Part shown: positions 1,191-29,100 of the stretch, piece by piece | Position numbering within the stretch: the first letter of the stretch is position 1 | How the letters are laid out: each line of letters begins with the position of its first letter | Assembly: GCA_964521865.1 (NCBI GenBank) | Contig: CAZFTJ010000005.1 | Location: 7,613 to 71,612 of the forward strand | Reading direction: 5' to 3' | Length of the DNA: 64,000 nucleotides | DNA from: an uncultured Spirochaetota bacterium | GTDB taxonomy: Bacteria; Spirochaetota; B62-G9; DRHN01 | Notes under the pieces: generated by a model | What the model was told of the DNA's origin: nothing | What the model saw: the letters and a program-made list of their open reading frames with translations, nothing else | Databases searched by the model: none | Translations under genes and position numbers: made by a program

Positions 1191-1203
1191 TTTCTCAACA
1201 CCC

Positions 1204-2337: not shown

Positions 2338-2374
2338 CAACGACCCCTTAATCAATAATTTATTGTTAAACCGA

Positions 2375-4119: not shown

Positions 4120-4194
4120 AATTTTTCATTTTTCCGAGAGATTATACCATACATTGTATAGTATAATCTCTCATAGTATAGGGACGTATTTTAT

Positions 4195-5652: not shown

Positions 5653-5767
5653 AGCTATCCTCCTTAAAAAATATAAAATTTATTTTAAAAGTATCATGAT
5701 GCCCCGACCTGCGTTGATATCCAAATAATTCTATTAAATCTTTGGAGCTCTCAATTTAATGAGTTAG

Positions 5768-6739: not shown

Positions 6740-6812
6740 TGTCCTATCTCTTAACTAGAAGCTATATTTATCCGCAGTATTTCTTGAATATTTCTTTACG
6801 CATCGATTCACA

Positions 6813-8291
6813 TTATTTATCAACCGGAAAAGGCCTGTATTCCACACCTTCACGTTTATAAATAGCCGCTACTTTTCTTTCCAATTCAGTAACGATTTTA
6901 TTGGATAAATGATTTAGTCTGTGCTCTTCGAGTATTTGTCGAACCCTCTCTATTGCCCTCTCCCGAATATCTTTGCACCCGTTCGCTTCCCATTTCTGGC
7001 GAACGGTCCTATCGGATATTGTAGGAAAGTACTGTTCTTCCTTGAAAAATTTTAATGTATGCTCATGCTCTAAAAAATTCCCCCCATGACCAATCTCTTG
7101 AATTATATCTATGGCAAGTTTTTCCTCTGTTACATGTATTCCCTTTAAAATTCTTTTAACATACCCTGCTATTTCTTCATCTATTACTACCTGTTCATAG
7201 TTCGCACTTTCACCACTATTGATTAGACCGCCAACAAGAGCAATTTCATCCGCACCTGCCATTGCTGCTAAAAGTACTCCCATCATTTTTTCATAGCCGG
7301 CCTGTTGATCTGGAACCTTCGCATCAGTCTGCCCAACAATAATATTGGATGGAATTTGATAATATTTTGCGAGCTGCGTAAACCCTACGCACATGAGCAC
7401 CTGTTCGGGACACCCGAACACATTTGTAACAGCTCTCATGTCCATAATCCCGGGCCAAGACATATATATAACCGGCGCTCCGGGGTTTACCAACTGATTG
7501 AGCACTATACCACTCAAGGCCTCAGCATTACCCTGGACAAGAGAACCTGAAAGTGTAACGGGATGCATGGAGCCCGAAAGAGGCATGGGGAGTATTTCAT
7601 TCGGAAGCCTTACTTTTGCTGTTTCGATTATAACAATTGCCTCTTTGCTCCAGGTTAGCGCTCTTTGTGGGAGAACAGTCATGTTAAAAGTTTTTTTCTT
7701 ACCAATTTCATTACGTCCACCCTCTACAATCTCGACCAAATCGATGAGATCATCCGTTGTTTTTTGATCGAGTCCGTCTCCAGCAGGAATAACCTTGCCG
7801 TTATTTTTTACCAGAACTTCAAAATATCGAGCATGAAAGACTTCAGCAGGAATGTCCTGAGCCCAGATCATTCCATTGCCTATTTCAAGATATTCCATAG
7901 CATCAGAAAGACGTGCAAAATTTGCAATATCCTGTTCTACCCCTTTTCTAAACCTGCCTTCAAGATCCAGTACATAAGCAGTGGTCGATCCCACACCAAA
8001 ATGAACATCTCTATCACCAAATCGAATGGGAGAATGTCTCCTTTGATCCAAGGGATATCTTGTAAATGAAGGAGGTGCAGAACGAATACATGCTTCAACT
8101 ATACCGGGAGGAAAATACACTGTATTATTATCACCGATAGTCAATCCTGCCTTGCGAAATACTTTCAAAGCGCTTTCACAGTGGAATTGGATTCCAGTAT
8201 TTTCTAAAATATCAATAGTAGCGACATGTATACGGTATAACTCGTCGTCGCTCAATATACGAAATGGGGCTTTGGATTGGACTAATATCAT
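6813..8291 (-). CDS. MttB-superfamily methyltransferase (trimethylamine methyltransferase family), no in-frame amber codon, so a non-pyrrolysine member
   Basis: 492 aa; N-terminus LSDDELYRIHVATIDILENTGIQFHCESALKVFRKAG matches the MttB-family N-terminal consensus; the ORF is uninterrupted. Confidence 0.7.
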   Translation of the reverse strand: MILVQSKAPFRILSDDELYRIHVATIDILENTGIQFHCESALKVFRKAGLTIGDNNTVYFPPGIVEACIRSAPPSFTRYPLDQRRHSPIRFGDRDVHFGVGSTTAYVLDLEGRFRKGVEQDIANFARLSDAMEYLEIGNGMIWAQDIPAEVFHARYFEVLVKNNGKVIPAGDGLDQKTTDDLIDLVEIVEGGRNEIGKKKTFNMTVLPQRALTWSKEAIVIIETAKVRLPNEILPMPLSGSMHPVTLSGSLVQGNAEALSGIVLNQLVNPGAPVIYMSWPGIMDMRAVTNVFGCPEQVLMCVGFTQLAKYYQIPSNIIVGQTDAKVPDQQAGYEKMMGVLLAAMAGADEIALVGGLINSGESANYEQVVIDEEIAGYVKRILKGIHVTEEKLAIDIIQEIGHGGNFLEHEHTLKFFKEEQYFPTISDRTVRQKWEANGCKDIRERAIERVRQILEEHRLNHLSNKIVTELERKVAAIYKREGVEYRPFPVDK

Positions 8292-8350
8292 TCTATGTTC
8301 CCATTCATTACCGGTTGATTTTTATCGTGCATTAATACGCGTCTCCAGGT

Positions 8351-9532
8351 TTAATTTCCAAACTTTTCGGCCCATTTATAAAGACGCTCGCGGTAATATC
8401 TAAAATTTTCCCACGAAATCCCACATGGAACCAGATGATCAATAAAAGGAATATATCCTCCCTGCTCCAACATAATGGGCAGCTTTGAGCGCAACTCCTC
8501 GTCAATTGCTTCCTTACCCACAGCGACTTTTCTTTTGTCGATCCCTCCCATCATTTTCAATTGCGGGAATTTTTTCCTGACCGCAACAACATTCATCCCC
8601 GCCGCAACTTCAAACGGATATAATCCTGTAACACCACAATCGAGCAAAATAGGAATAAGCTCACTGATATTTCCATCTGAATCGACAAAAATATTTTTCA
8701 CTCCTTTTGAAATAACCGCATTAATAAATTTTTTATAATACGGCATAAAAAAATCTCTAAACATCTTGGGAGATATCAAGGGTCCATTCTTGTACGCCAT
8801 ATCCTCCCAGATATGAATGCAGTCGACTTCGATCTCATTTAGTATTGATGTTATGAGCTCTATATAGAAATCAGTGAGATATTCTAACATTGATATAATG
8901 AGCTTAGGGTCATCGTAGAATGAATAGAGAAGACGCTCGACACCCATCAGGGCTCTTAAATAACCAAAAAAACCAAAGGGATACCCCCCTAAAGCAAGAG
9001 GATAATCTCTTTGCTTGTACCTTTCGCGTCTATTCCGCCAATCATCGGGAAGTCTTTTCTCTAAATCCGGCTGAAATCGTTTTTTCAGTTTTACAAAATC
9101 GGACAATTCCTTTACAGGATAGAACAAGAATTGCGGTATTGATTTCCCGTCCTTTCTGGTTTTCATACCAACTCCCATCTGGTCGATGATTACTATATTT
9201 TCTCCTTCGTATCTGAGCACCTTTTCTTCAAACGGCGGCTCCATCCCCAAATTCAATGGGACAGCAACGGTGGGGGAATCAAAGTGAAAAAATGCCGCTA
9301 CATCTGTGTCATGAGGCTCTTGTCCTATTTCATTCCATGGATACGCCTCACCAATTACAGTACCATCCCAAAATAGTGAAACGTTCGTCCACTTATTACT
9401 GGATGTAATTTTCGGCAAGCCCTCTTTCCACCATCGATTGTATACGTCCCGCCAGTAACCGAACTCCCACATCATTGTCCTGGTTCCTGTGGTAAAGTCC
9501 ATAATGGAAAGAAATCTTTCTCGCGAGTTCAT
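8351..9532 (-). CDS. uroporphyrinogen-decarboxylase (URO-D) family protein, MtaA/CmuA-like methylcobamide methyltransferase-like
   Basis: 393 aa; N-terminal ERFLSIM.. and C-terminal VDSDGNISELIPILLDCGVTGLYPFE resemble URO-D family motifs; adjacent to the MttB-like gene. Confidence 0.55.
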   Translation of the reverse strand: MNSRERFLSIMDFTTGTRTMMWEFGYWRDVYNRWWKEGLPKITSSNKWTNVSLFWDGTVIGEAYPWNEIGQEPHDTDVAAFFHFDSPTVAVPLNLGMEPPFEEKVLRYEGENIVIIDQMGVGMKTRKDGKSIPQFLFYPVKELSDFVKLKKRFQPDLEKRLPDDWRNRRERYKQRDYPLALGGYPFGFFGYLRALMGVERLLYSFYDDPKLIISMLEYLTDFYIELITSILNEIEVDCIHIWEDMAYKNGPLISPKMFRDFFMPYYKKFINAVISKGVKNIFVDSDGNISELIPILLDCGVTGLYPFEVAAGMNVVAVRKKFPQLKMMGGIDKRKVAVGKEAIDEELRSKLPIMLEQGGYIPFIDHLVPCGISWENFRYYRERLYKWAEKFGN

Positions 9533-9547
9533 GAGATTCTCTTGCGT

Positions 9548-10825
9548 TTACGAATAATTCATCACAGGTTTTTTATTTCCTCTTTTAAGCTTTGCAACCG
9601 TTTTACTGATCGATTCAATCATATAATCGACTTGTGAATCTGTTAATGAGAGATTGATTGGTGTATCTGTGAGCTGAGAATAGATCCGATCGGCCTGTGG
9701 ACAATTGATTCTTGGATACCCCAATTCTGTGAATATTTTAAAACGGTACGGTGGAAGATAATGTGGGATCGATTTGATCCCAAACTCATGGTATAAAATG
9801 TTCACAAAGTCATCCCGATTTGAATTAAAATTACTTCCGTCGAACAAGATAGGGTAAAGATGGAAAGCATGCGACCGATCATCTGGAATATGGGGTGCGG
9901 TAATACCTTCTATATCTTTTATACCGGCATTCATATGAGCTGCAATCTCATTTCTACGAGCATTCATCCATTCCAACTTTTTTAACTGTACTCTGCCGAC
10001 ATTGGCCTGTACATCACTGAGACAATAGTTATACGGAATCCTCCCTTTAATTGTTTTTACATCATAAAGAAATGGTATCCAATACTTTTCCAGATTTTCA
10101 TACATATCCATACCCACCCATCTCGCAAGAGGAATCAGGTCCGCAAATTCTTTTTTATTGGTTGTTATCATTCCGCCTTCACCCAATGTTGTGATGTTCT
10201 TTACCGTGTGAAAACTGAAACAGCCAAAATCTCCGAAAGTACCTGTTTTTTTACCTTTGTATACCGCCCCTAAAGAGTGAGCGCAATCTTCGACAACTTT
10301 TAAATTCTTTTTCGTCGCGAGCTTCATGATAGGTCCCATATCAGCAGGTAATCCATTTAAATGAACCACATAAATGGCTTTTGTTTTTTCAGTTATTTTT
10401 TCAGAAATTGTATCGGCCGTTATCGTATAGGTAACCGGATCAATGTCGGCAAAAACTACCTTTGCCCCGACTCTAAGAAGGGGAATAACTGTGGCAATAA
10501 AAGTAACTGCAGGAACAATGACCTCGTCCCCTTGTCCAATTTCCAGTATTTGTGTAGCGATTTCCAGCGCTCCTGTGCAACTGGAAACGCCGAAAGCATA
10601 TTTTGTGCCTATGTATTCCGCGAATTCTGTTTGGAAGAGTTTGAGATACGGACCTTGTGTGAAAATATCTCCCTGTATTGCTTCAATAACAGCCTGCACC
10701 TCTTCTAAACCATAGTGGGGTCCAACTTCTCGATACGGTACTTTCAACCCTTCTTGTTGTATTGCCTGCTTATAAATACCGCTCCAATCACTTTTTTCTT
10801 TGCTTTCATTTGGATCCATTTGCAT
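9548..10825 (-). CDS. DegT/DnrJ/EryC1/StrS family PLP-dependent aminotransferase
   Basis: 425 aa; characteristic blocks GDEVIVPAVTFIAT, VVEDCAHSLGA, FGDFGCFSFHTVKNITTLGEGGMITT. Confidence 0.85.
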   Translation of the reverse strand: MQMDPNESKEKSDWSGIYKQAIQQEGLKVPYREVGPHYGLEEVQAVIEAIQGDIFTQGPYLKLFQTEFAEYIGTKYAFGVSSCTGALEIATQILEIGQGDEVIVPAVTFIATVIPLLRVGAKVVFADIDPVTYTITADTISEKITEKTKAIYVVHLNGLPADMGPIMKLATKKNLKVVEDCAHSLGAVYKGKKTGTFGDFGCFSFHTVKNITTLGEGGMITTNKKEFADLIPLARWVGMDMYENLEKYWIPFLYDVKTIKGRIPYNYCLSDVQANVGRVQLKKLEWMNARRNEIAAHMNAGIKDIEGITAPHIPDDRSHAFHLYPILFDGSNFNSNRDDFVNILYHEFGIKSIPHYLPPYRFKIFTELGYPRINCPQADRIYSQLTDTPINLSLTDSQVDYMIESISKTVAKLKRGNKKPVMNYS

Positions 10826-10894
10826 ACCATTTTCCCCGTAATAGTTATTTGTCTTGTCTCACATGAAGACCATCCCGCATATTTCCGATGTGAA

Positions 10895-10932
10895 TAATTA
10901 TTTAACCGGTTACGTAAGCGGTTAAATAATTA
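10895..10932. promoter_or_regulatory. 38-bp near-perfect palindrome (TAATTATTTAACCG-gTTACGTAAg-CGGTTAAATAATTA); candidate operator upstream of the AT-rich minus-strand operon
   Basis: Read directly: 14-bp perfect inverted arms around the self-complementary core TTACGTAA; lies 70-110 bp upstream of the DegT start at 10825. Confidence 0.5.
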
Positions 10933-11859
10933 AACACTATTTAAGACTATATGTCAAGCAAAAAAATTAATAAATCAGTGATTTTATATGAAAATAATAT
11001 TGAGTCCTCCAGTCCAAACCATACAACTTTCCAAGACCCTGTTATATCACGCTCCTCATATTCACACCCCGCCATTGCTCACTCATCCCGTTCTTATTCT
11101 TAAAAATTTTACCTGCCTCAGCGTTTTTCAGCGATTCCTCCATATATTTCATCTTCATCCCCGAGCATTCATCTCCACCGCCAATTGCTATAGCTGCATT
11201 CTGAGAGGGTCGATTCTCTTCAAAAACTTTATGTGAAGATCAATACCGATAAAACCATACCCCTTGATTTATTCGTCGACGGCATGCATATTGACAAACG
11301 TGGTGTATTCAGAAATCTATTCGGAGTCTTCCTCATTTTCGGGAAGCTCCGATAGGTTTGATGCGAGGCGGCCGTCATTCGAAACGACGGGATACTGCGT
11401 CCCGGCATAACGACGGCCTCATCCATCTGAATACGCTGAAGAGAGTATTTGACCATACGGATATCAATATTCGGCTTTTATTATAATCTCGAAAGCGGAC
11501 AATTCCCTTCTTGGGACAAGATGGATAAACTCAGCGAACGTACTAAGGTCAATGAAAAAAAATGGGATACAAGGGCATAAACATACGATCAAAAACGATT
11601 CGACTATTTCAGATATATGCAGAAAAAGCTTATATTTAGCATCGGCCTTAAAAAGAATACTGCATTATTGGTAACCGATAAAGATTCATATTGGTGAAAA
11701 GCAGCATATATAATTACAAGAAATGTCCAGGCTTTGCCCGACAGAGCGTATGCGCCCTGCTCCCTTAGGTCGCTTAAGGCTTCGTTGTATTTCGTATACG
11801 CGCGGCTTCGCCAAAATGTCTTCTACGCATAAAACGCCGTTCGAAATCGGAGGTATCAA

Positions 11860-12450
11860 ATGGATGCTGAAAAGATTGACGAGAGAAAAATAGTATTCAA
11901 ACCTGCAACAAAAGATCTATGGAACGACTTAGAGGAATTATTCGGAACGCATGGAGCGTACGGTGGTTGCTGGTGCATGTGGTGGAGAGTCAAAAGGTTG
12001 GAGTTCGAAAAGCACGCCGGTGAAGGAAATAGGAAAGCCCTTAAAAAAATAGTGGACTCCGGAACAGTTCCGGGAATTTTAGCGTACTTCGACTGCAGAC
12101 CGGTAGCATGGTGTTCCGTTGCACCGCGCGAACAATTTCCGGTTTTGGACCGGTCTCCTGTGTTGAAGAGATTCGACAACAAGCCTGTTTGGTCTATTGT
12201 GTGCTTTTTTATCTCAAAGCCGTTCAGGCGCAAAGGATTGAATCTGATACTGATAAAGGGTGCGCTTGATTATGCAAGGAAAAAGGGAGCGAAGATAGCA
12301 GAGTCATATCCTTTGGATAAAGAATCCAGCAAGAACACATCGACGGATGCCTTTACGGGATTTGCCAAAACATTCTACCGTGCCGGTTTTAAGGAAGTGA
12401 TAAGACGATCGGAAAAACGTCCGATACTCAGATATTATATCGATTCCTGA
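11860..12450 (+). CDS. GNAT family N-acetyltransferase
   Basis: 196 aa; acetyl-CoA-binding-like block FRRKGLNLILIKGALDYARKKGAKIAES; GNAT-like fold signature; RBS GGAGG before the ATG. Confidence 0.6.
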   Translation: MDAEKIDERKIVFKPATKDLWNDLEELFGTHGAYGGCWCMWWRVKRLEFEKHAGEGNRKALKKIVDSGTVPGILAYFDCRPVAWCSVAPREQFPVLDRSPVLKRFDNKPVWSIVCFFISKPFRRKGLNLILIKGALDYARKKGAKIAESYPLDKESSKNTSTDAFTGFAKTFYRAGFKEVIRRSEKRPILRYYIDS

Positions 12451-12633: not shown

Positions 12634-13302
12634 ATGTGCACCTACATCTTAATGAAGATACTTGAATCCACCCCACACAGGTATGACAGGGGCATTCGCA
12701 TTCTCACACTCGGGAGATTGGACGGGGCGTACGATCGTTTAACCTCTCTCATAAAAAGAAGGCAGCGTGTCCTTGATATTGGATGCGGTACCGGTGCATT
12801 AACGGTAAGAGCCGCTTTTAAGGGCGCAAAGGTAAAAGGGATTGATGTCAATGAACAGATGCTGGAAATCGCGAAAAAGAGGGTAGCGGAAGCAAAACTC
12901 GAACAAAGTGTTGAGCTATGTGAGATGGGTGTTGCGGAGCTCGAAGGCGAAGAGGCGGCAAACTACGATGTTGTTATGAGCGGTCTCTGTTTCTCTGAGT
13001 TAACCGGGGATGAATTGATTTATACCTTGAAAGAGGTAAAGAGGATCCTGAAGCCGGGAGGCGCTGTGCTCATTGCAGATGAAATAAGACCCAACGGCAT
13101 TTCAAAGAGGATACTCAATTGGCTGATACGGTTCCCGCTTGTAATAATTACCTGCCTTGTGACCCAAACTACGACACGTGCCGTACGGAATTTGCCGGAA
13201 AAGATGGAAGAAGCGGGTTTTTTAATTGAATCGGTCAGATTGAATAAAATAGAAAGTTTTATTGAGCTTTTTGGAAGAAAACCTGAGGAAACGGTGCAAT
13301 GA
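12634..13302 (+). CDS. class I SAM-dependent methyltransferase (Methyltransf_11/25-like) with a hydrophobic C-terminal segment
   Basis: Motif I VLDIGCGTGALT; acidic loop GIDVNE; 222 aa; its stop overlaps the start of the next gene (ATGA). Confidence 0.8.
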   Translation: MCTYILMKILESTPHRYDRGIRILTLGRLDGAYDRLTSLIKRRQRVLDIGCGTGALTVRAAFKGAKVKGIDVNEQMLEIAKKRVAEAKLEQSVELCEMGVAELEGEEAANYDVVMSGLCFSELTGDELIYTLKEVKRILKPGGAVLIADEIRPNGISKRILNWLIRFPLVIITCLVTQTTTRAVRNLPEKMEEAGFLIESVRLNKIESFIELFGRKPEETVQ

Positions 13303-14456
13303 ATCTTCTCAAGTATATTCTTGTGAGTATTATCGAAACTTTGCTGAGAGGCTTCCCTTTCCCCTGTAAGACAGGTTTGATTAAAATAGGGAGTCCGGGC
13401 AGGAATTCACCTGTTATTCTGACCTGTAATTATCATTTGACTGTTGTAAAAGTCAAAAGAGCGTTGAAAGAAACGGACTGTTATCTCCTTGTAGCAAATA
13501 GCAGAGGACTCAATGTATGGTGCGGCTCCGCCGGCGGGCATTTGACAAATCACTCTATTATATCCGCTCTAAAGACCAGCGGGATAGAAGAACATGTGCA
13601 TCATAGATATGTAATACTTCCTCAACTCGCTGCCGCAGGAATCGAATCGAGAGTCATCAAGAAAAAGACGGCATGGAAGATCGTCTGGGGGCCGGTTTAT
13701 GCGAAAGATATACCGGCTTTCATAGAAAGCAATTTCAAAAAAACTGCCGAAATGAGGGAGATACGTTTCCCCTTGGGGCAGCGGATTGAAATGGCTGTTA
13801 TGTGGGCATTTCCATTTTCAATCATCGCATCCATTATAATAATTCCTTTCCGGCCCGGAATGCTTTTACCTTTAAATGCTCTTATCTGGGGCTTATCATT
13901 TTTAATATTCACGTCCTTCCCCCTGTATTCCGGCTGGCTCAATCGAAAGAAGAATCCGACGGGTGTCAGCAGGTACTCGATTATCTTTGATTTCGGTCGC
14001 ATCCCCCTGGTTATTTGGATAATTTTTCTATCGTGTCTTGTCGTCGTAAGCATTTTCGTAAACGCTTTTACATGGGGATTCGTTTTACGCTGGGGATTCA
14101 TGTCATTCGTTATCCTTCTTCTGATAAGCGGTGATCTCATGGGCAGCACCCCGGTTTACAAGAGTGGTTTGCACGAAGAGAGATTTTTCAAGGTCATGCT
14201 CGATAAAAAAAAGTGCAGAGGAGCCGGTTTTTGTGAGCTGGTCTGCCCGCGTAATTGTTATGAAGTGGATAAAAATCGGCATGTTGCCACCATGCCGGGG
14301 GCGAACCGGTGCGTACAGTGCGGCGCGTGCATAGTTCAGTGCCCGTTCGATGCCCTGTATTTTGAAAGCCCGGAAGGTGAAATAATACCTCCTGAATCTG
14401 TCAGAAGATTTAAATTAAATCTTATGGGCAAACGGCTTGTGAAACAGGATTCTTAA
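13299..14456 (+). CDS. HgcA-like corrinoid-binding membrane protein fused to an HgcB-like 4Fe-4S ferredoxin domain (HgcAB-fusion paralog family)
   Basis: Residues 30-160 align with the HgcA corrinoid domain (PVILTCNYHLTVV, cap-helix-like LLVANSRGLNVWCGSAGG, VILPQLAAAGIE, VWGPVYAKDIPAFI); four to five TM helices at 165-290; C-terminal CRGAGFCELVCP plus CVQCGACIVQCP ferredoxin. Confidence 0.75.
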   Translation: MNLLKYILVSIIETLLRGFPFPCKTGLIKIGSPGRNSPVILTCNYHLTVVKVKRALKETDCYLLVANSRGLNVWCGSAGGHLTNHSIISALKTSGIEEHVHHRYVILPQLAAAGIESRVIKKKTAWKIVWGPVYAKDIPAFIESNFKKTAEMREIRFPLGQRIEMAVMWAFPFSIIASIIIIPFRPGMLLPLNALIWGLSFLIFTSFPLYSGWLNRKKNPTGVSRYSIIFDFGRIPLVIWIIFLSCLVVVSIFVNAFTWGFVLRWGFMSFVILLLISGDLMGSTPVYKSGLHEERFFKVMLDKKKCRGAGFCELVCPRNCYEVDKNRHVATMPGANRCVQCGACIVQCPFDALYFESPEGEIIPPESVRRFKLNLMGKRLVKQDS

Positions 14457-14659
14457 CGGCCCGGTGTGATAGTATTTCAAGCAGGAGGCGTGCGTTCTCA
14501 TAGCATGAACAGTCTGACAGGCAGGGCATGGAATAGAGAAAAAAAATGATAACATTTCTAAATTGTAATGTTCGTGAAAGCTTTTTTTCATTTTGCAGTA
14601 TTACATTATGAAGCGGATTGAGATACTATTCAAAACTGGGGAACAAGAGGAGCAATACA

Positions 14660-15514
14660 ATGAATGCTTTAAAGACGACAGTTCTTATGGCGGCAATGAC
14701 CGGAATTCTGATCATCATCGGAAAGCTTATCGGCGGAGCTACAGGCATGATCGTTGCGTTTATTTTCGCCGGAATCTTGAATTTCTTCAGCTACTGGTTC
14801 AGCGATAAAATTGTCCTTTCAATGTATCGAGCTAAAGAGGCAAGTGAGAAGGAGGCTCCGAAGCTCTATAAAACGGTGGAAAGGCTTACGTCAAAGCTCG
14901 GGCTTCCGGTGCCCAGGATATTCATTATTCCATCCGACACGCCCAATGCTTTTGCAACGGGAAGGAATCCATCTCACGCCGTTGTAGCAGCAACGAGGGG
15001 TTTGCTGCGTATGCTCGATGACGACGAGCTGGAGGCGGTTCTTGGTCATGAGCTCACACACGTACGGGACCGGGACATTCTTGTGAGCACCATCGCAGCC
15101 GCAATGGCAGGCGCTGTCACCATGCTCGCATTCATGGCTCGCTGGACCGCTTTATTCGGAGGGCTCGGTGGTACGAGTAATGAAAGGGGTGGAGGTGTAA
15201 TCGGTCTCCTTGCAATGGCTATCCTGGCGCCTTTCGCTGCCCTCCTTATCCGTCTCGCAATTTCCAGAACACGGGAGTATATGGCCGACGCAGGAAGTGC
15301 AGAGCTTACAAAGAATCCTCTCGCGCTCGCACGAGCGCTCGAGAATCTGGAAGCTGCCGCCGCACGAAGACCGCTTCCTGCAAGCCCGTCTACCGCGCAC
15401 CTGTTTATTGTAAATCCTTTGAGAAGCGGTTTCATGATAAAGCTTTTCAGCACTCACCCTCCCATTGAAAAGAGGGTTGCACGGCTTCAGGAGATTGCAC
15501 GAAATATGGATTAA
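14660..15514 (+). CDS. htpX: zinc metalloprotease HtpX (M48 family)
   Basis: HELTHVRDRD zinc motif (HExxH); N-terminal TM helices; strong RBS AAGAGGAG before the ATG at 14660 (the track ORF begins upstream at 14618). Confidence 0.9.
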   Translation: MNALKTTVLMAAMTGILIIIGKLIGGATGMIVAFIFAGILNFFSYWFSDKIVLSMYRAKEASEKEAPKLYKTVERLTSKLGLPVPRIFIIPSDTPNAFATGRNPSHAVVAATRGLLRMLDDDELEAVLGHELTHVRDRDILVSTIAAAMAGAVTMLAFMARWTALFGGLGGTSNERGGGVIGLLAMAILAPFAALLIRLAISRTREYMADAGSAELTKNPLALARALENLEAAAARRPLPASPSTAHLFIVNPLRSGFMIKLFSTHPPIEKRVARLQEIARNMD

Positions 15515-15538
15515 ATACCTCAGTCAGGTATATTCTCT

Positions 15539-16855
15539 ATGTTTAAAAAAATCGCAGATCGCCGGACGAGCCAAAAAATCGGATATCTGGAAACCGCAGC
15601 TATCGGTGTTGGAGGCATGGTTGGAGGTGGAATCTTCGCCGTGCTGGGGCTTGCGGTGCAGCTCGCACACGGTGGAGCGCCTGTCGCATTTATGATTGCC
15701 GGAATTGTCGCACTGGTTACGTCCTATTCTTATGCGAAGCTCTCAGTAACCTTCCCCAGCCAGGGAGGTACGGTCGCTTTTCTGGATCGCGCATTCGGGC
15801 CAGGTCTTATAACGGGCTCGGTAAATATTCTACTATGGATCAGCTACATGATCATGCTCTCCCTCTATGCGTATGCTTTCGGCAGCTATGGCGCTGCTCT
15901 TTTCCCTCAGGCCTCGCGAGAGCTGTGGAAACATGTGCTGATCAGCGTGAGTATCACCGGCATTACGGGGCTCAACCTGTTGAGCGCCAGGCTCATCGGA
16001 GAAACCGAGGAGGTGATCGTCGCAATCAAGCTCGTAATTCTTCTGTTATTCGCAGGATTTGGAGTATTGGGCATCAGGGGCTCTCGTTTGGAGCCAATGG
16101 CCTGGTCCTCCCCATTAAAACTTGTTTCCGGCGGAATGATCATTTTTCTCGCATACGAAGGATTCGAATTGATCGCCAATACCGCCAAGGATGTACGAGA
16201 GCCGTCAAAAACACTGCCCCGGGCATTTTATACCTCTGTTGGATTCGTGATTGTACTCTATATCCTCATAGCGGCTGTCGCAATAGGGAATCTTCCCGTC
16301 AAACAGATTGTCGGAGCAAAAGATTACGCACTGGCCGAGGCGGCTCGACCTTTCCTCGGGCAAGCGGGGTACCTCTTGATCACCGTAGCTGCATTGCTAT
16401 CGACTTTTTCGGCGATTAATGCCACAGTTTATGGAGCGGCTCGCCTGAGTTATGTCATTGCAAAAGACGGCGAACTGCCGGCCGAACTCGAGCGTAAAGC
16501 GTGGAAGCAGCCCATTGAGGGGCTTTTGATCACTTCAGGGATCACACTGATCATTGCAAACGTGTTTGATCTCTCCAGCATTTCCGTGATGGGGAGCACC
16601 GGCTTCCTTTTAATCTTTACTGCCGTCAATGCTGCAAACGCTGTACTCGCCAGGGAGACGAAGAGCATGCGGTGGCTTTCGATTATCGGTGTGGCGCTGT
16701 GCCTCGGTGCTCTGGGCAGCCTGCTCCGGCAAACGGCAATCGATGCACCGGGACATCTGTGGGTGCTTGCTGGTATGGTTGTGCTCGCGTTTCTCATCGA
16801 ATCGAGCTTCCGTTTGCTGAGTTCCAGAAGTATACGGCTCGAAAGCTCACGTTGA
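15539..16855 (+). CDS. APC-family amino acid permease
   Basis: 438 aa, 12 predicted TM helices; N-terminal GVGGMVGGGIFAVLG signature typical of the APC superfamily. Confidence 0.85.
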   Translation: MFKKIADRRTSQKIGYLETAAIGVGGMVGGGIFAVLGLAVQLAHGGAPVAFMIAGIVALVTSYSYAKLSVTFPSQGGTVAFLDRAFGPGLITGSVNILLWISYMIMLSLYAYAFGSYGAALFPQASRELWKHVLISVSITGITGLNLLSARLIGETEEVIVAIKLVILLLFAGFGVLGIRGSRLEPMAWSSPLKLVSGGMIIFLAYEGFELIANTAKDVREPSKTLPRAFYTSVGFVIVLYILIAAVAIGNLPVKQIVGAKDYALAEAARPFLGQAGYLLITVAALLSTFSAINATVYGAARLSYVIAKDGELPAELERKAWKQPIEGLLITSGITLIIANVFDLSSISVMGSTGFLLIFTAVNAANAVLARETKSMRWLSIIGVALCLGALGSLLRQTAIDAPGHLWVLAGMVVLAFLIESSFRLLSSRSIRLESSR

Positions 16856-17094
16856 ATGAGGGCCTGTTCAACACATGGAATTCATCGACCGGCGCGTGCG
16901 GCAAAACCCGAAGGCTGACCCTAAAAGAGTATACGAAGCTCTTTTTAAGCACCTTCAAAAAGTTACTTCATACCATCCATTCGGCTGTCGGCGGCGCATC
17001 TCGTTCTTCGTTATAATATTCTTAAAAATAATTCTTTACACATATACAATGTGCACATATGATGTTTTTAGAAGAACGGGCAAGGGGGTTTTCT

Positions 17095-18441
17095 ATGAGA
17101 ACAGAGCAATGGATGAAGGAAGCCGGGTATATAGCAGACGTGATGAAGAAAGCACCTTCGTTTGACAGAGCATATCGGATCGGACCGGAGGAGTTTGACG
17201 CACGGCAGAGCAAGGTGTTGAAAGGGCTGCAGGAAAAGGGTCTTGAATGCGGAATAGTATTTTCAAACGAGCACTACAATGGAGATGTTCCATATTTAGG
17301 AGGAAATACCAACATAACGGTCGAATCTGTAGCCGGAATCATCGGGAACGACGGATTTCATATACTCGCAGGTCTTGAAGGAGGGTACGTCGCTGAGCAG
17401 CTTGCCGGCAGATCGAACACAAAGGTACACAAGATACAGATGCTTCAGCTCGCTGATGAGGATTATCCAATCGATGCTGAACGTTTCGAGGATGTGATAG
17501 AGGAGGCGTGCGGGAAAAAGCCCGAAACAATCGGCCTTCTTACCCCCCGGGCAATTTTCCCTGTGAGCATTTACGAGTATTTACAAAAGTACCTGGGCGG
17601 TACAGAACACATAATCGATGCTCAGGAGGTGTACTATAAAGTCAAATACGAGAAGTCCGATATGGAGATGAAACTTGTCGAGGAAGCCTGCCTGTTGGCT
17701 GACACACTTATAGAGGGAATGGTCGGGGTCGTGAAACCCGGTATATACGATACACAGATAGCAGGGTGGGGCTATGAAATGGCCTATGAGTTGGGCGTTG
17801 ACGAGCTCAGCTTCGATATTATAGTAACGGTCGGTGAAGCAAATCGCTCGCTTATATCCAAGGCATTGAACTACAGGGTAAAGGAAGGCGACATTGTTTC
17901 AATAGGAGTAGCGCCGAGGAGGGACGGGCTTACCGGATGCAACCGGGTATCCGTAGTGGCAGTTGATGATCCCGGCAGGATAACCGATGATCAAAGGTTC
18001 TGGATTGAATTCGTGGAAGAGGCCTACCGCGAAGGACTCAGAGCGTTCAAGGAAGTTGCAAAGAACAACCTGCCGGCAAAGAATGTCGAACAGGCGATTA
18101 TAGACTATTACCGAATGCGCGAAAAAGAGGTAAACAAAAGGTACGGAATATCGGTCGATCTGGCCAGACAAAAGCCGTATACGGGTGTGCACAATGCAGG
18201 GTACACGGAGGCATACGAGTTTTACGGCGCCATCACGCTGGCTTCCGAAGAGCCTCTCGGGAATCAGGTAGTGAATATGCTCGATATTGCTGTGAGGGGT
18301 ATCGGCAACAGGTGGGATGAAGTTGTCATACCCGGGCTCGATTATGTTGTGGTGGAAAAGACGCTTGGTAAATACGGAAAAGAGGTTCGGCAGCTCAACA
18401 AGCTTCCTTTGAACGTACAGCATCTCGTCGGCAAGGCCTGA
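17095..18441 (+). CDS. M24 family metallopeptidase (Xaa-Pro aminopeptidase/creatinase-like)
   Basis: Creatinase-like N-terminal domain and pita-bread C-terminal domain; RBS AAGGGGG before the ATG at 17095. Confidence 0.6.
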   Translation: MRTEQWMKEAGYIADVMKKAPSFDRAYRIGPEEFDARQSKVLKGLQEKGLECGIVFSNEHYNGDVPYLGGNTNITVESVAGIIGNDGFHILAGLEGGYVAEQLAGRSNTKVHKIQMLQLADEDYPIDAERFEDVIEEACGKKPETIGLLTPRAIFPVSIYEYLQKYLGGTEHIIDAQEVYYKVKYEKSDMEMKLVEEACLLADTLIEGMVGVVKPGIYDTQIAGWGYEMAYELGVDELSFDIIVTVGEANRSLISKALNYRVKEGDIVSIGVAPRRDGLTGCNRVSVVAVDDPGRITDDQRFWIEFVEEAYREGLRAFKEVAKNNLPAKNVEQAIIDYYRMREKEVNKRYGISVDLARQKPYTGVHNAGYTEAYEFYGAITLASEEPLGNQVVNMLDIAVRGIGNRWDEVVIPGLDYVVVEKTLGKYGKEVRQLNKLPLNVQHLVGKA

Positions 18442-18559
18442 TAATTTTCATCAACACAAAGGTCGATTGGTTTATATTAGGAAAAAACAAAAGTTCGCCG
18501 CCCGAATCGGTTCGACAATATCTACAATTACTGAGATATCTCAAAAAAACATGACTCTG

Positions 18560-19609
18560 TTATTCTGGGAATTCGATCAGGGTCTTCAAACCCTCTCCGC
18601 TCATAGCATATGCAAATGCTTCTTTAATCTCGGCGATTCTGAAGCGCTTGCTTATGATCGATTTCGTATCAACCTTTCGATCTTCTATCAGCTTTATCGA
18701 CCGTGCATAATCATACTGCGCATATCTCGTCGTTCCCGTCAGAACGAGGTTGTTGTAATGAATACGATTCGTGTCGAGCCGGACAAGCTCCTTTCCCTGC
18801 GGCAGGCCGCCGAACAGGTTTATTCTCCCTCCCTTTGCTGCAAGCTCCACGGACTGCCGTTGTACATCAGGAACAGGACAGGCTGTAATAATCACATCCG
18901 CCCCGGCCCCATCTGTATGGCGACTCACCGCTTCGGCAAGGTCTTCCTTCTCAGAATTGACGATGATATCGGGATTAAACTTTTGAATGAGGTTGAGTCT
19001 GGCATCGGAGATATCAGCCATCATGATTTTCCCCGCCCCTGCAATGCGTTGAATCAAGAGATGCAGGACGCCCATGGGCCCTGCCCCAACAATCAGAACG
19101 TTATCACCGGGCTTTGTGTGTACTGAACGGTATGCAAAGTAGCAGCACGCGAGCGGTTCTGCAAGTGCCGCTTCTTCGAAGCCGATATCTTTTTTGAACG
19201 GTACAAGATCACCCTGCACGATTGCCTTGGAATAAATCCTCATATATTCTGCAAAGCCGCCGTTTATTGTGATACCAAACGCATCGTAATCGGGGCAGAG
19301 GTGAAATTTTCCTATTTTACAATAGCGACACCTCCCACACCCGATGTTTGGGGCAACCGCAACCCTCATTCCTTTCGCATATCCTTTTACATCAGAACCA
19401 ACCTCCCAGATCTCCCCTGAAATCTCATGTCCCAGTATCCTTGTTTCGCCCTCACCTATCCTGTGGTGACCACTCTTAAAGATCCTGAGGTCCGTGCCGC
19501 ATATATTCGCGGCTCTCACCCTGAGGAGCATCTCATCTTTAGCGATCTTTGGAACCGGAACTTCATGCGCTTCGATCTTACCGATACCACTGAATACTGC
19601 AGCACGCAT
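18560..19609 (-). CDS. Zn-dependent alcohol dehydrogenase, MDR family (threonine/sorbitol dehydrogenase-like)
   Basis: CGTDLR.. GHE..GEI catalytic zinc motif; CGRCRYC structural zinc motif; GAGPMG Rossmann motif. Confidence 0.85.
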   Translation of the reverse strand: MRAAVFSGIGKIEAHEVPVPKIAKDEMLLRVRAANICGTDLRIFKSGHHRIGEGETRILGHEISGEIWEVGSDVKGYAKGMRVAVAPNIGCGRCRYCKIGKFHLCPDYDAFGITINGGFAEYMRIYSKAIVQGDLVPFKKDIGFEEAALAEPLACCYFAYRSVHTKPGDNVLIVGAGPMGVLHLLIQRIAGAGKIMMADISDARLNLIQKFNPDIIVNSEKEDLAEAVSRHTDGAGADVIITACPVPDVQRQSVELAAKGGRINLFGGLPQGKELVRLDTNRIHYNNLVLTGTTRYAQYDYARSIKLIEDRKVDTKSIISKRFRIAEIKEAFAYAMSGEGLKTLIEFPE

Positions 19610-19761
19610 GTTTCAAACCTCCACTCTGATCCCTTCCGAGTCTCTTTTGGCTGAAGTTGATATCTTTCAGTTGTAAAATAATATTTTTTTTGTTAATATA
19701 TTCAAAAAATTTATTTCAATTCTATAATATTTATGCAATAATAATAACTGGAGGCTGAACG

Positions 19762-20622
19762 ATGCCCGAGAATGATATTCTTTTGTTGAAGATCAGGGGC
19801 TTGCTCTCATCACTTAGTCCTGCTTTAAAAAAAATAGCTCTCTACATTCTAAATAATCCACAGAAGGTAAAGCTGTTGCGCATAAAAGACCTCGCCTCAA
19901 GCTGTGGTGTTGCAGAAGCAACAATTACACGGTTTGTAAAGACCATCGGCCTTGGAAGCTTCCAGGAGTTGAAGATCAATATTGCCGAGCTCACCAAAGA
20001 GAGTAATGTCGAGAAAGAGCTCGTATACGACGATGTAACGATAGGCGATTCTATAAAGAGTATCGTAGATAAAATCGTTGCCATTAATATCAAGGCATTG
20101 AACGACACTAAAAAGCTGATAAACATAAAAGAAACAGAGAGGGCAATAGCTGCAATACATAAAGCAAAGCAGATAGATATCTACGGTGCAGGCGGTTCCT
20201 ATATCACTTCCGAGAATGTCCGCATGCGGTTCTACAGAATAGGGAAGCGCTGTATCATATACAACGACCCGAACCAGCAGGCTGTATCAGCCTCGCTGCT
20301 TACTTCAAAGGATCTCGCCATAGGTATATGTAATTCGGGCCGCACGATCTCCACCGTCAATGCATTAAAACGAGCCAAGGAAAGCGGTGCCGTTACTATT
20401 TGCATTACCAACTTCGATCAGACGCCTATAACAAAGTATGCCGACATCAAGCTCTTTACATCGACCCAGGACTCCGCATTCTTTCAGGAATCGATGGTTT
20501 CAAGAGTGGCACAAATTATCATAGTGGACATCCTCTATGCGGGACTTGCGATACGCACCTTCGATACATCTATTAAAAAGATCGAGAAATCATCGGCCTC
20601 TCTGAGAAATGTCCTTATGTAG
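19762..20622 (+). CDS. MurR/RpiR family transcriptional regulator (HTH + SIS domain)
   Basis: N-terminal HTH LRIKDLASSCGVAEATITRFVKTIG; C-terminal SIS-like sugar-phosphate-binding region. Confidence 0.85.
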   Translation: MPENDILLLKIRGLLSSLSPALKKIALYILNNPQKVKLLRIKDLASSCGVAEATITRFVKTIGLGSFQELKINIAELTKESNVEKELVYDDVTIGDSIKSIVDKIVAINIKALNDTKKLINIKETERAIAAIHKAKQIDIYGAGGSYITSENVRMRFYRIGKRCIIYNDPNQQAVSASLLTSKDLAIGICNSGRTISTVNALKRAKESGAVTICITNFDQTPITKYADIKLFTSTQDSAFFQESMVSRVAQIIIVDILYAGLAIRTFDTSIKKIEKSSASLRNVLM

Positions 20623-20799
20623 ATGCATTCCAGGAAATCTTCAAATCTCCTCCACCTCCAGGTCCGGTACCTGGTCGGTATATTTCAATCCCGTTTTGAT
20701 AGATGCGAAAAAAAGCGCTGCAATAGAAAATTCCAGAAAATTTCTACTCAGGATTGGGATGATGAAAAAATTCTTAATGCGCAGATTATTATATATATC

Positions 20800-23381: not shown

Positions 23382-23430
23382 ATTATACTTCCTCTTCGTG
23401 TATAGTTATTTGAACGCTTCGCATCCGGAG

Positions 23431-24192: not shown

Positions 24193-24259
24193 CTTCTTCT
24201 TCCTTAATAAAAAAATAGGGATAGAAACCCTTGCAGGTTCCTATCCCCATCAACGACCC

Positions 24260-29042: not shown

Positions 29043-29100
29043 ATGGCGGTAATAAGAACGAAAACGTGCCTTAATATCGTGTGAACACGGTATCGGTACC

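What the first reader, a model, noticed from the sequence alone, without database searches (positions are those of the whole stretch)
12634..14456. Translationally coupled SAM-methyltransferase and HgcA-HgcB fusion-like corrinoid membrane ferredoxin protein
ORF 13299..14456 has the three-part architecture of the mercury-methylation pair HgcA/HgcB, fused into a single polypeptide. Residues about 30-160 align to the HgcA corrinoid-binding domain as I recall it from Desulfovibrio ND132, including a cap-helix-like LLVANSRGLNVWCGSAGG (canonical HgcA: NVWCA(A/G)GK). Four to five TM helices follow. The C-terminus is a dicluster ferredoxin in which one motif is non-canonical (C-x5-C-x3-CP) and the HgcB C-terminal Cys-Cys pair is absent. 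Its ATG overlaps the stop of a class I SAM-dependent methyltransferase (ATGA). That places a SAM methyl donor enzyme and a corrinoid carrier in one operon, with a GNAT gene 184 bp upstream. Fused HgcAB paralogs are known but have no assigned function, and reportedly do not methylate mercury. The variant cap helix and the missing CC tail argue that this is a distinct, uncharacterised corrinoid-dependent methyl-transfer system, for a metal(loid) or another nucleophile, rather than a bona fide Hg methylase.
Basis: partly seen in the sequence, partly recalled or inferred. Interest (0 to 1): 0.85.

Follow-up and report, generated by a model that had tools for sequence, protein, structure and literature searches.

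The report
Known CpaM–fused HgcAB-like gene pair
This is an ordinary copy of a widespread two-gene module already in NCBI's catalogue, a SAM methyltransferase (CpaM) coupled to a membrane-bound vitamin-B12/iron-sulfur protein related to the mercury-methylating enzyme HgcAB; the partnership proved obligatory, but its target is still unknown.

Summary
ORFs 12634..13302 and 13299..14456 overlap by ATGA. They encode a class I SAM methyltransferase and a protein with a CFeSP/HgcA-type corrinoid domain, four TM helices and a two-cluster ferredoxin domain.

Both already have curated NCBIfam models. The 385-aa protein is an "HgcAB-like fusion protein" (459 bits, cutoff 285) and fails the true HgcA and HgcB models. 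The 222-aa protein is "corrinoid protein-associated methyltransferase CpaM" (286 bits, cutoff 180). Fused HgcAB has been published since 2015, and two carriers did not methylate mercury.

What I add:
- The pair is obligate: 76 of 76 genomic loci, 4 of 4 reciprocal loci, and the 4-nt overlap in 41 of 73 pairs.
- It has no other conserved neighbour; the GNAT is not part of it.
- It persists in branches only 29% identical.
- It recurs as natural single-chain CpaM–HgcA(B) fusions (15 of 150 representatives).
- True HgcAB uses SAM (Zheng 2024), so CpaM most likely loads SAM's methyl onto Co(I).
- In *P. furiosus* the pair is induced 11- to 32-fold by copper shock.

The acceptor is unknown. This is a known kind of system, of moderate interest.

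The parts
12634..13302 (+). cpaM: corrinoid protein-associated class I SAM-dependent methyltransferase, 222 aa (NCBI calls a 216-aa form starting at Met7, nt 12652)
   Evidence: NCBIfam NF043040 scores 286 bits against a cutoff of 180. Pfam Methyltransf_25 and Ubie_methyltran match. The SAM motif is VLDIGCGTG (residues 46-54), with D71, E97 and G99 invariant. The AF2 model has pLDDT 81, and its closest fold is Coq5/UbiE type.
13108..13176 (+). CpaM-specific conserved hydrophobic helix, residues 159-181 (window: RILNWLIRFPLVIITCLVTQTTT; family consensus has Y174); proposed membrane- or partner-docking element
   Evidence: P168, L169, T173, Q178, T179 and T181 are invariant in 23 sequences. Kyte-Doolittle hydropathy peaks at 1.2-1.7 over 160-178. 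The segment is helical but low-confidence in the model. PDB sequence matches stop at about residue 150.
13285..13302 (+). Translational-coupling junction: GAGGAA Shine-Dalgarno-like element inside the end of cpaM, then ATGA (start of hgcAB-like overlapping the stop of cpaM)
   Evidence: Read directly from the sequence. The same 4-nt overlap occurs in 41 of 73 pairs, and 64 of 73 junctions are within 11 nt. It recurs in L164, L165 and L167-L170.
13299..14456 (+). hgcAB-like fusion gene, 385 aa: corrinoid domain, 4 TM helices and a dicluster ferredoxin domain
   Evidence: NCBIfam NF043039 scores 459 bits against a cutoff of 285. HgcA_corrinoid scores 153 (cutoff 275) and HgcB 40 (cutoff 99). The protein is 67% identical to Kosmotoga pacifica P0059, whose cluster NCBI names HgcAB-like fusion protein.
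13356..13802 (+). CFeSP/HgcA-type corrinoid-binding domain (residues 20-168)
   Evidence: Pfam CdhD matches residues 20-141. HgcA_corrinoid matches 23-168. The solved CFeSP large subunit 2h9a_A matches 23-145 at E 3e-10.
13485..13538 (+). Cap-helix region LLVANSRGLNVWCGSAGG (residues 63-80). Cys75 (nt 13521-13523) is the presumed lower axial Co ligand.
   Evidence: N72, W74, C75, G79 and G80 are invariant. Cys75 aligns with the Thr of SVLTAWAAGK in CFeSP 2h9a. In true HgcA the equivalent Cys93 ligates Co in methyl-Co(III) (PMC11588087).
13785..14138 (+). Membrane domain with four TM helices (residues about 163-280), N-in and C-in
   Evidence: Hydropathy gives four segments in all 23 homologues, and K/R-rich loops at 140-162, 209-235 and 280-300.
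14133..14183 (+). Highly conserved linker DLMGSTPVYKSGLHEER (residues 279-295) between TM4 and the ferredoxin domain
   Evidence: D279, L280, G282, S283, P285, Y287, K288, S289, L291, H292, E293 and R295 are invariant. It is recognisable as DMLGSTPFFKT in the 29%-identical L084 protein.
14193..14369 (+). Ferredoxin domain (residues 299-357): non-canonical C306-x5-C312-x3-C316-P-x2-C320 plus canonical C338-x2-C341-x2-C344-x3-C348-P
   Evidence: Pfam Fer4_7 matches 305-352. All eight Cys are invariant. The second Cys of motif 1 is missing throughout the window's subclade (class Fd1/1).

Best explanation
The locus is a standard, horizontally mobile cpaM / hgcAB-like cassette: a two-protein, SAM- and corrinoid-dependent methyl-transfer machine anchored in the membrane.

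Shown:
- The 385-aa protein joins a CFeSP/HgcA-type corrinoid domain with an invariant cap-helix Cys, four TM helices and a two-cluster ferredoxin domain. Both soluble parts face the cytoplasm.
- It is always encoded directly after, and usually translationally coupled to, a Coq5/UbiE-like class I SAM methyltransferase.
- The two are repeatedly found fused into one chain.

Inferred mechanism:
1. The built-in ferredoxin domain takes low-potential electrons and reduces Co(II) to Co(I).
2. CpaM binds SAM and presents its methyl to Co(I), giving Cys75-ligated methyl-Co(III) and SAH. This is the half-reaction that true HgcAB carries out with SAM without a dedicated methyltransferase.
3. The methyl group passes to an unidentified acceptor at the membrane face, formed by the TM domain and the conserved GSTPVYKSGLHE(D/E)R linker.

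The acceptor is probably not Hg(II). A soft metal(loid) or a small hydrophobic molecule are the leading candidates.
For: Identity:
- NF043039 scores 459 bits (cutoff 285) and NF043040 scores 286 (cutoff 180).
- A crude NJ tree groups the protein with Kosmotoga P0059, far from the one true-HgcA-type sequence placed, P0494.

Obligate partnership:
- CpaM lies directly upstream in 76 of 76 assessable loci from many bacterial and archaeal phyla.
- All 4 loci chosen through CpaM alone have the fusion gene downstream.
- The 4-nt overlap is present in 41 of 73 pairs.
- No other neighbour family exceeds 5 of 141.
- The pair is kept in L084, L164 and L165. L084 is only 29% and 34% identical to the window proteins.

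Rosetta-stone fusions:
- P0311 (646 aa) is a single-chain CpaM plus HgcAB-like protein, found in 3 contigs from 2 sequencing runs.
- 15 of the 150 50%-identity representatives are methyltransferase-HgcA(B) fusions; 7 of 7 tested pass the CpaM cutoff.

Chemistry precedent: purified HgcAB takes its methyl from SAM through Cys-ligated methyl-Co(III), and HgcB reduces Co (PMC11588087).

Topology: four TM helices, N-in and C-in, place the ferredoxin and corrinoid domains on the same side.

Not Hg:
- P. furiosus and M. methylutens, which carry fused HgcAB, make no MeHg (PMC4646819, PMC5893877).
- The HgcB Cys-Cys tail is absent.

Stress link: P. furiosus PF0728 and PF0729 rise by log2FC 5.0 and 3.4 after copper shock (PMC7830388, supplementary file 3).
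Against: - No biochemical data exist for any member.
- The direction of methyl flow and the role of CpaM are inferred from gene coupling and from analogy with HgcAB.
- True HgcAB uses SAM without a separate methyltransferase, so CpaM may do something else, such as methylating the final acceptor or acting only in reactivation.
- A complex model could not be run, and the monomer model of the fusion protein was poor (pLDDT 55).
- The copper induction in P. furiosus may be read-through from copZ (PF0727), which lies immediately upstream. Metal genes are not enriched near the cassette elsewhere.
- Negative Hg-methylation tests in whole cells do not rule out activity of the enzyme, as Podar et al. 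themselves note (PMC4646819).
Confidence: 0.6

Rival explanations
1. SAM-dependent repair module. CpaM and the ferredoxin domain only perform reductive remethylation of accidentally oxidised Co(II), like the AdoMet domain plus flavodoxin in methionine synthase MetH. Catalytic turnover uses another methyl donor, such as methyl-H4folate or a methylated substrate, supplied by enzymes encoded elsewhere.
For: - Reductive reactivation with SAM is the classical role of SAM in corrinoid methyltransferases (established knowledge of MetH).
- The cassette holds exactly a reductant domain and a SAM enzyme.
- The window also encodes an MttB-family methyltransferase and an MtaA/URO-D-like methyltransferase 3-6 kb away.
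Against: - No second methyltransferase is conserved near the cassette in about 80 genomes, so the catalytic partners would have to be generic.
- Strict 1:1 coupling and repeated covalent fusion of CpaM to the corrinoid protein fit a stoichiometric catalytic partner better than an occasional repair factor.
- For the closest characterised relative, SAM is the catalytic donor and Me-THF is not (PMC11588087).
Confidence: 0.15
2. It is a genuine, merely divergent mercury methylase (functional hgcAB in fused form). CpaM improves SAM delivery.
For: - It shares the corrinoid domain, the cap-helix Cys, the membrane domain and the ferredoxin with HgcAB.
- HgcAB uses SAM (PMC11588087).
- Podar et al. caution that the negative whole-cell assays do not prove the enzyme is inactive (PMC4646819).
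Against: - It fails the curated HgcA model (153 vs 275) and HgcB model (40 vs 99), whereas a true HgcA control scores 367.
- The cap helix NVWCGSAGG is not among the accepted N(V/I)WC(A/S)(A/G/S)GK variants (PMC10087281).
- The HgcB C-terminal Cys-Cys, required for methylation (PMC11588087), is absent.
- Two cultured carriers made no MeHg (PMC4646819, PMC5893877).
Confidence: 0.05
3. The corrinoid protein is not a methyl carrier here. It is a reductive catalyst, for example halomethane dehalogenation by Co(I) as recently claimed for HgcAB. CpaM separately methylates the product or another small molecule, possibly a thiol or metalloid, in a detoxification role.
For: - A 2026 preprint reports CCl4 dechlorination by heterologously expressed HgcAB (10.64898/2026.04.26.720869).
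- CpaM's fold resembles small-molecule C- and O-methyltransferases such as Coq5 (TM-score 0.75).
- One locus (L168) has ArsP and another methyltransferase adjacent.
- The pair is induced by metal stress in P. furiosus.
Against: - Covalent fusions of CpaM directly to the corrinoid domain point to direct hand-off between them.
- CpaM lacks the ArsM cysteine pattern and scores far below the ArsM cutoff (45.7 vs 263).
- The preprint has not been peer reviewed and concerns true HgcAB.
Confidence: 0.1

Closest known systems
HgcAB-like fusion protein / 'fused HgcAB' (NCBIfam NF043039; P. furiosus PF0729 = AAL80853, Kosmotoga pacifica, Methanococcoides methylutens)
   Same: Same family. It scores 459 bits against a cutoff of 285 and is 67% identical to the K. 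pacifica protein. It has the same three-part architecture, the same cap-helix variant and the same upstream methyltransferase.
   Different: Nothing essential. It is one more member, and the exact protein is already in NCBI and Logan. The family's function is unknown.
CpaM, corrinoid protein-associated methyltransferase (NCBIfam NF043040, hypothetical equivalog)
   Same: It scores 286 bits against a cutoff of 180, aligns over its full length, and has the defining gene context.
   Different: None. I found no publication describing CpaM in the searchable library.
HgcA/HgcB mercury methylase (Pseudodesulfovibrio mercurii ND132)
   Same: CFeSP-type corrinoid domain, cap-helix Cys as Co ligand, membrane domain and a 2-cluster ferredoxin reductant. 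SAM is the methyl source in HgcAB (PMC11588087). The proposed chemistry is the same.
   Different: - One polypeptide instead of two.
- Four predicted TM helices here, against five reported for HgcA (PMC11588087).
- NVWC-x3-GG instead of NVWCAAGK.
- The first Fe-S motif lacks its second Cys.
- No C-terminal Cys-Cys.
- An obligate separate SAM methyltransferase.
- Below the HMM cutoffs.
- Relatives do not methylate Hg.
Corrinoid iron-sulfur protein (CFeSP, AcsC/CdhE) of the Wood-Ljungdahl pathway
   Same: The corrinoid-binding Rossmann domain is homologous (2h9a_A, E 3e-10, residues 23-145).
   Different: CFeSP is soluble, has an N-terminal [4Fe-4S] domain and a TIM-barrel partner, has Thr where Cys75 sits, and takes its methyl from methyl-H4folate through MeTr. 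The window protein scores 93 bits against a cutoff of 306.
SAM plus cobalamin methylases: MetH reactivation domain, and class B radical-SAM enzymes such as TsrM
   Same: SAM methylates Co(I) to give methyl-Co(III), which then donates the methyl group.
   Different: Here SAM is bound by an ordinary class I Rossmann methyltransferase. There is no radical-SAM CxxxCxxC domain, no MetH-type AdoMet domain and no Pfam PF04055 hit. The corrinoid protein is membrane-integral.

Membership tests
HgcAB-like fusion protein (NF043039) | Score at or above the curated whole-protein cutoff of the family HMM | tested here: met
   459.2 bits against a cutoff of 285, covering profile positions 2-350 of 350.
HgcAB-like fusion protein (NF043039) | A single chain with an HgcA-type corrinoid domain, a membrane domain and an HgcB-type dicluster ferredoxin | tested here: met
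   CdhD matches residues 20-141 and Fer4_7 matches 305-352. Four hydrophobic segments lie between them.
HgcAB-like fusion protein (NF043039) | Conserved cap-helix cysteine (NVWC) | tested here: met
   N72, W74 and C75 are invariant in 23 homologues. Of the 150 representatives, 135 carry N[VIA]WC; the rest are mostly fragments.
HgcAB-like fusion protein (NF043039) | Binds a corrinoid and Fe-S clusters | not testable with these tools
   This needs UV-vis and EPR on purified protein.
CpaM (NF043040) | Score at or above the curated cutoff | tested here: met
   286 bits against a cutoff of 180, covering profile positions 1-216 of 216.
CpaM (NF043040) | Encoded next to a corrinoid (HgcAB-like) protein | tested here: met
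   There is an ATGA overlap in the window. The arrangement holds in 76 of 76 loci and 4 of 4 reciprocal loci.
CpaM (NF043040) | Class I SAM-binding fold and motifs | tested here: met
   VLDIGCGTG, D71 and E97/G99 are present. The AF2 core has pLDDT above 90, and Foldseek gives Coq5 4obw at TM-score 0.75.
Bona fide HgcA (NF040863) | Score at or above the curated cutoff | tested here: not met
   153.5 bits against a cutoff of 275, with only profile positions 30-175 matched. The positive control P0472 scores 367.
Bona fide HgcA (NF040863) | Cap-helix motif N(V/I)WC(A/S)(A/G/S)GK | tested here: not met
   The window has NVWCGSAGG. The accepted motifs are listed in PMC10087281. Ten of the 150 representatives carry an ...AGK-type cap helix (mostly NVWCAAGKG[TS]F) and no Fe-S motif. 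They score only about 120-133 bits against the window protein, and the one tested (P0472) passes the HgcA model.
Bona fide HgcB (NF040864) | Two CxxCxxCxxxCP motifs plus a C-terminal Cys-Cys needed for Hg methylation | tested here: not met
   It scores 40.5 bits against a cutoff of 99. The first motif is C-x5-C-x3-CP, and there is no Cys after C348.
Bona fide HgcAB | Methylates Hg(II) | not testable with these tools
   Published whole-cell tests of two fused-HgcAB carriers were negative (PMC4646819, PMC5893877).
CFeSP large subunit (AcsC/CdhE, NF003195) | Full-length match including the N-terminal [4Fe-4S] and TIM-barrel regions | tested here: not met
   It scores 93 bits against a cutoff of 306, and only profile positions 321-448 of 450 match.
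Arsenite methyltransferase ArsM | Score above the cutoff and conserved As-binding cysteines | tested here: not met
   PRK11873 scores 45.7 bits against a cutoff of 263. Apart from C51 in the SAM motif, only C96 and C119 are near-invariant.
Class B (cobalamin-dependent) radical SAM methylase | Radical SAM domain (PF04055, CxxxCxxC) | tested here: not met
   Neither protein has a PF04055 hit.

The most novel reading that the evidence does not exclude
The stand-alone CpaM / HgcAB-like cassette is a mobile detoxification or stress determinant. It uses SAM and a Cys-ligated methyl-cobalamin to methylate a soft metal(loid) or another electrophile other than mercury, at the cytoplasmic membrane face. 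That would be a previously unrecognised route of biological organometal(loid) formation, widespread in anaerobes. The deeper branches of the same module have been recruited for methylation in natural-product-like gene clusters.
Probability: 0.15. Interest if true: 0.8.

Novelty: already known. Interest (0 to 1): 0.4.

Why it matters
Fused hgcAB sequences are routinely recovered in environmental surveys of mercury-methylation genes, and they must be set aside because their carriers do not make methylmercury. What they do has been open since 2015.

Three points turn that question into a concrete biochemical experiment:
- Every fused HgcAB-like gene comes with a dedicated SAM methyltransferase.
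- The two are repeatedly fused into one chain.
- True HgcAB is now known to draw its methyl group from SAM.

The experiment is SAM- and CpaM-dependent methylation of the protein-bound cobalamin, followed by a screen for acceptors. Copper induction in *P. furiosus* gives a first physiological lead.

For this window, however, the locus is an ordinary, already annotatable member of the family.

Tried and rejected
- **Complex model.** I built a linker-joined paired alignment (A3) from 29 CpaM and HgcAB-like pairs. Model coordinates cannot be retrieved in any case.
- **AF2 model of the fusion protein from A1.** Mean pLDDT was 55, which is unusable, so I ran no fold search on it.
- **Metagenome scan with the CpaM alignment.** It was swamped by the generic SAM motif VLD[IL]GCGTG. 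Only L082-L084 were true relatives, so it was not a valid reciprocal test. I replaced it with four look-ups of CpaM hits.
- **GNAT, HtpX and the amino-acid permease as parts of the system.** Rejected: they occur in 1, 0 and 0 of 80 loci.
- **Metal-homeostasis neighbours as a general feature.** Rejected: only the Thermococcaceae locus has a P-type ATPase, and no family exceeds 5 of 141 neighbours.
- **Source organism.** Not identified. There are no tRNA or Rfam hits. The NCBI copy of CpaM could not be looked up. Only Logan run SRR14802574 is known. Gene content says bacterium.
- **Literature on CpaM.** No paper in the library mentions it, including the NCBI curators' selenoprotein/HgcA preprint.
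- **7Fe-ferredoxin reading of the first Fe-S motif.** C-x5-C-x3-CP-x2-C resembles, from my memory of *A. vinelandii* FdI, the C-x7-C-x3-CP-x2-C motif that binds a [3Fe-4S] cluster. PDB sequence hits to a 7Fe ferredoxin (1bc6, E 6e-4) are no better than hits to 8Fe ferredoxins. This stays a conjecture.
- **Promoter and terminator scans.** They gave nothing convincing in the 183-nt upstream or 161-nt downstream spacers.
Full report
**What is there**

The window holds two same-strand ORFs, 12634..13302 (222 aa) and 13299..14456 (385 aa). The junction reads GTGCAATGAATC, so the ATG of the second gene overlaps the TGA of the first. A GAGGAA element lies 8-13 nt upstream.

The 222-aa protein is a class I SAM methyltransferase (Methyltransf_25, E 8e-20; Ubie_methyltran, E 9e-15).

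The 385-aa protein has three parts:
- The C-terminal corrinoid-binding domain of the CdhD/CFeSP family (residues 20-141, E 8e-18).
- A hydrophobic middle region.
- A dicluster ferredoxin domain (Fer4_7, residues 305-352).

Hydropathy gives four TM segments, not five, in this protein and in all 22 aligned homologues. The K/R-rich loops imply an N-in, C-in topology, so the corrinoid and ferredoxin domains share the cytoplasmic side.

**It is a known, curated pair**

NCBIfam assigns the 385-aa protein to NF043039, "HgcAB-like fusion protein" (459 bits, cutoff 285). It assigns the 222-aa protein to NF043040, "corrinoid protein-associated methyltransferase CpaM" (286 bits, cutoff 180).

The larger protein fails the true HgcA model (153 vs 275), the HgcB model (40 vs 99) and the CFeSP model (93 vs 306). 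As a control, a true HgcA from the representative library (P0472, cap helix NVWCAAGKGSF) scores 367 on the HgcA model and 221 on the fused model.

The exact window proteins are already in public collections. Homologues carry NCBI names such as "HgcAB-like fusion protein" and "CpaM" in several phyla.

The literature agrees:
- Fused HgcAB was described in 2015 (PMC4646819).
- *P. furiosus* and *Methanococcoides methylutens*, which carry it, did not produce methylmercury (PMC4646819, PMC5893877).
- Consensus protocols tell users to treat these sequences separately from true hgcA (PMC10087281).
- The fused clade is sister to HgcA in a published phylogeny (10.1101/2022.11.21.517362).

**How tight is the partnership**

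A pattern scan of one genome per species found 356 loci encoding a relative, of which 80 were kept. They span Desulfobacterota, Chloroflexota, Actinomycetota, Bacteroidota, Thermotogota, Acidobacteriota, Spirochaetota, methanogens, Thermococcaceae, Bathyarchaeia and others.

- In all 76 loci with at least 125 nt of upstream sequence, a CpaM homologue (52-76% identical) lies upstream on the same strand. It is immediately adjacent in 74 of them. The other four loci are cut by a contig end. Three copies look truncated or chimeric (L029, L049, L053).
- In 41 of 73 extracted pairs the genes overlap by the same 4 nt, and 64 of 73 junctions are within 11 nt.
- Clustering of all flanking ORFs, and a Pfam scan of the 141 immediate neighbours, found no other recurrent family. 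The maximum was 5 of 141, and those were miscellaneous extra methyltransferases.
- The GNAT recurs in 1 of 80 loci. HtpX and the permease recur in none.
- Four CpaM genes chosen only through the CpaM search are each followed by a 381-387-aa CdhD+Fer4 gene with a 4-nt overlap.
- Transposases flank the cassette in L084 and L170.
- In the window the cassette (44-46% GC) sits between a 36-41% block and a 49-56% core.

High identity across domains of life, together with these features, indicates a self-contained, horizontally mobile two-gene module.

**Deeper branches and natural fusions**

A metagenomic locus (L084) carries a pair only 34% and 29% identical to the window proteins, yet both still pass the NCBIfam cutoffs. 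Searching with that protein revealed diverse further branches in Riflebacteria, Streptosporangiaceae and Chloroflexi. Their cap helix is NVWCAAG and they have two canonical CxxCxxCxxxCP motifs. The window's NVWC-x3-GG and C-x5-C features are therefore subclade traits.

P0311 (646 aa) is a single chain with CpaM (residues 3-217, 245 bits) followed by HgcAB-like (residues 252-585, 356 bits). It is identical in three contigs from two sequencing runs and an NCBI MAG.

An exhaustive search of 1.84 billion representatives with residues 1-295 gave 1,092 relatives at E ≤ 1e-3. Among the best 150, 15 are methyltransferase-HgcA(B) fusions, and 7 of 7 tested pass the CpaM cutoff. Four of those seven are triple fusions and three lack the ferredoxin domain. 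Such Rosetta-stone fusions are strong evidence that the two proteins work as one unit.

A crude NJ tree without support values groups the window protein with *Kosmotoga pacifica* P0059, away from true HgcA.

**Mechanism**

Zheng et al. 2024 showed that purified HgcAB takes its methyl group from SAM, not methyl-H4folate. It passes through methyl-Co(III) with the cap-helix Cys as ligand, and the HgcB clusters supply electrons (PMC11588087).

By analogy, which is inference:
1. The built-in ferredoxin domain reduces Co(II) to Co(I).
2. CpaM binds SAM and methylates Co(I).
3. Cys75-ligated methyl-Co(III) passes the methyl to an acceptor near the membrane face.

The CpaM model (pLDDT 81) has a confident Rossmann core closest to Coq5/UbiE-type enzymes (TM-score 0.75). 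Its two family-specific conserved elements are the low-confidence parts: the N-terminal helices 1-25 and the hydrophobic helix 156-177. That is expected for surfaces which order only on a partner or a membrane. PDB sequence matches stop at about residue 150.

The first Fe-S motif lacks its second Cys but gains C320. Whether this gives a [3Fe-4S] or a site-differentiated [4Fe-4S] cluster is open.

**A physiological lead**

The *P. furiosus* fused HgcAB is AAL80853 (PMC7438021). By accession offset this is PF0729, which is my own arithmetic. It is supported by the annotation pair PF0728 "SAM-dependent methyltransferase" and PF0729 "Ferredoxin".

In the CopR study, a 20 µM CuSO4 shock raised PF0727 (copZ) by log2FC 6.7, PF0728 by 5.0 and PF0729 by 3.4, while PF0730 was unchanged (PMC7830388, supplementary file 3).

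This may be read-through from copZ. Cop genes are not near the cassette outside Thermococcales.

**In the divergent actinobacterial and Chloroflexi branch**

Here the pair sits in a conserved cluster resembling a natural-product pathway: three radical-SAM enzymes, an α/β-hydrolase, an M20 peptidase, a ThiF-hydrolase fusion, and in some loci an ATP-grasp enzyme and an MFS transporter. The module may therefore be a general SAM-to-cobalamin-to-acceptor platform whose acceptor differs between branches.

**Verdict**

However, the system is already catalogued by NCBI and, for the fused protein, in the mercury literature.

The GNAT is unrelated, and the "variant" motifs are subclade traits. The function is still unknown.

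The obligate and often covalent partnership with a SAM methyltransferase, read together with the 2024 HgcAB result, gives a testable mechanism. I rate identity at about 0.95, the proposed mechanism at about 0.5-0.6, and interest at 0.4.

Noticed in passing
window 6813..9532 (- strand): An MttB-superfamily methyltransferase (423 bits on the trimethylamine:corrinoid model, below the 525 cutoff, so probably a non-Pyl relative) sits beside a URO-D/MtaA-like protein. These are parts of another corrinoid-dependent methyl-transfer system, 3-6 kb from the cassette. I saw no cognate B12-binding protein next to them.
   Followed up: partly
window 1..12000 vs 14600..64000: There is a strong compositional step. 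Genes at 102..10825 have 36-41% GC, the GNAT and the cassette 44-46%, and htpX onward 49-56%. This suggests one or two acquired islands abutting the core genome.
   Followed up: partly
window 10826..11859: About 1 kb has only short overlapping ORFs and no tRNA or Rfam hit, between the DegT-type aminotransferase and the GNAT gene.
   Followed up: no
P0311 (L162 4001..5941; L163 1913..3853); also P0398, P0403, P0431, P0459, P0408, P0467, P0486, P0411, P0487: Natural single-chain CpaM-HgcA-HgcB fusions, and CpaM-HgcA fusions lacking the ferredoxin domain, make up 15 of the 150 50%-identity representatives.
   Followed up: yes
L164 980..12187; L165 959..12310; L162 250..8578: In a Streptosporangiaceae/Chloroflexi branch the cpaM/hgcAB-like pair is embedded in a conserved cluster. 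It holds two or three radical-SAM genes (one HemN-like), an unknown protein of about 288 aa, and a ThiF-hydrolase fusion. L164 and L165 also have an α/β-hydrolase and an M20 peptidase, and some loci add an ATP-grasp enzyme, an MFS transporter or a BTAD/LuxR regulator. It looks like a biosynthetic gene cluster.
   Followed up: partly
P. furiosus PF0727-PF0729 (literature): The P. furiosus copy of the pair lies directly after copZ and rises 32-fold (PF0728) and 11-fold (PF0729) after copper shock (PMC7830388, supplementary file 3). Kosmotoga P0059 also carries the legacy database name 'copper oxidase'.
   Followed up: partly
L053 4888..5605 (Methanococcoides sp. MAG): CpaM residues 1-62, including the SAM motif, are replaced by an unrelated segment with a helicase-like P-loop (GPGAGKT), so cpaM may be disrupted here. 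Methanococcoides is one of the two genera tested negative for Hg methylation.
   Followed up: no
L084 2045..3385; L170 1..2478: Transposases lie directly next to the cassette: IS701 downstream in L084, and a DDE transposase plus IS605 OrfB/TnpB upstream in L170. This fits mobility.
   Followed up: no
P0433, P0450, P0457, P0474, P0475, P0477, P0479, P0482, P0489: A separate class of HgcAB-like proteins of 468-501 aa, mostly with cap helix N[VI]WCSSLAGHF, has an N-terminal extension of about 140-190 aa. None of the three scanned (P0433, P0450, P0477) has a Pfam match in that extension.
   Followed up: partly
L168 4452..5626: In one locus the cassette is followed, on the opposite strand, by another class I methyltransferase and an ArsP-family (organoarsenical efflux) permease. 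AhpD/CMD-like genes lie upstream.
   Followed up: no
L021 2478..3053: The only other locus with a homologue (52% identical) of the window's GNAT-like gene directly upstream of cpaM is a Calditrichota MAG. The three genes may have moved together once.
   Followed up: no
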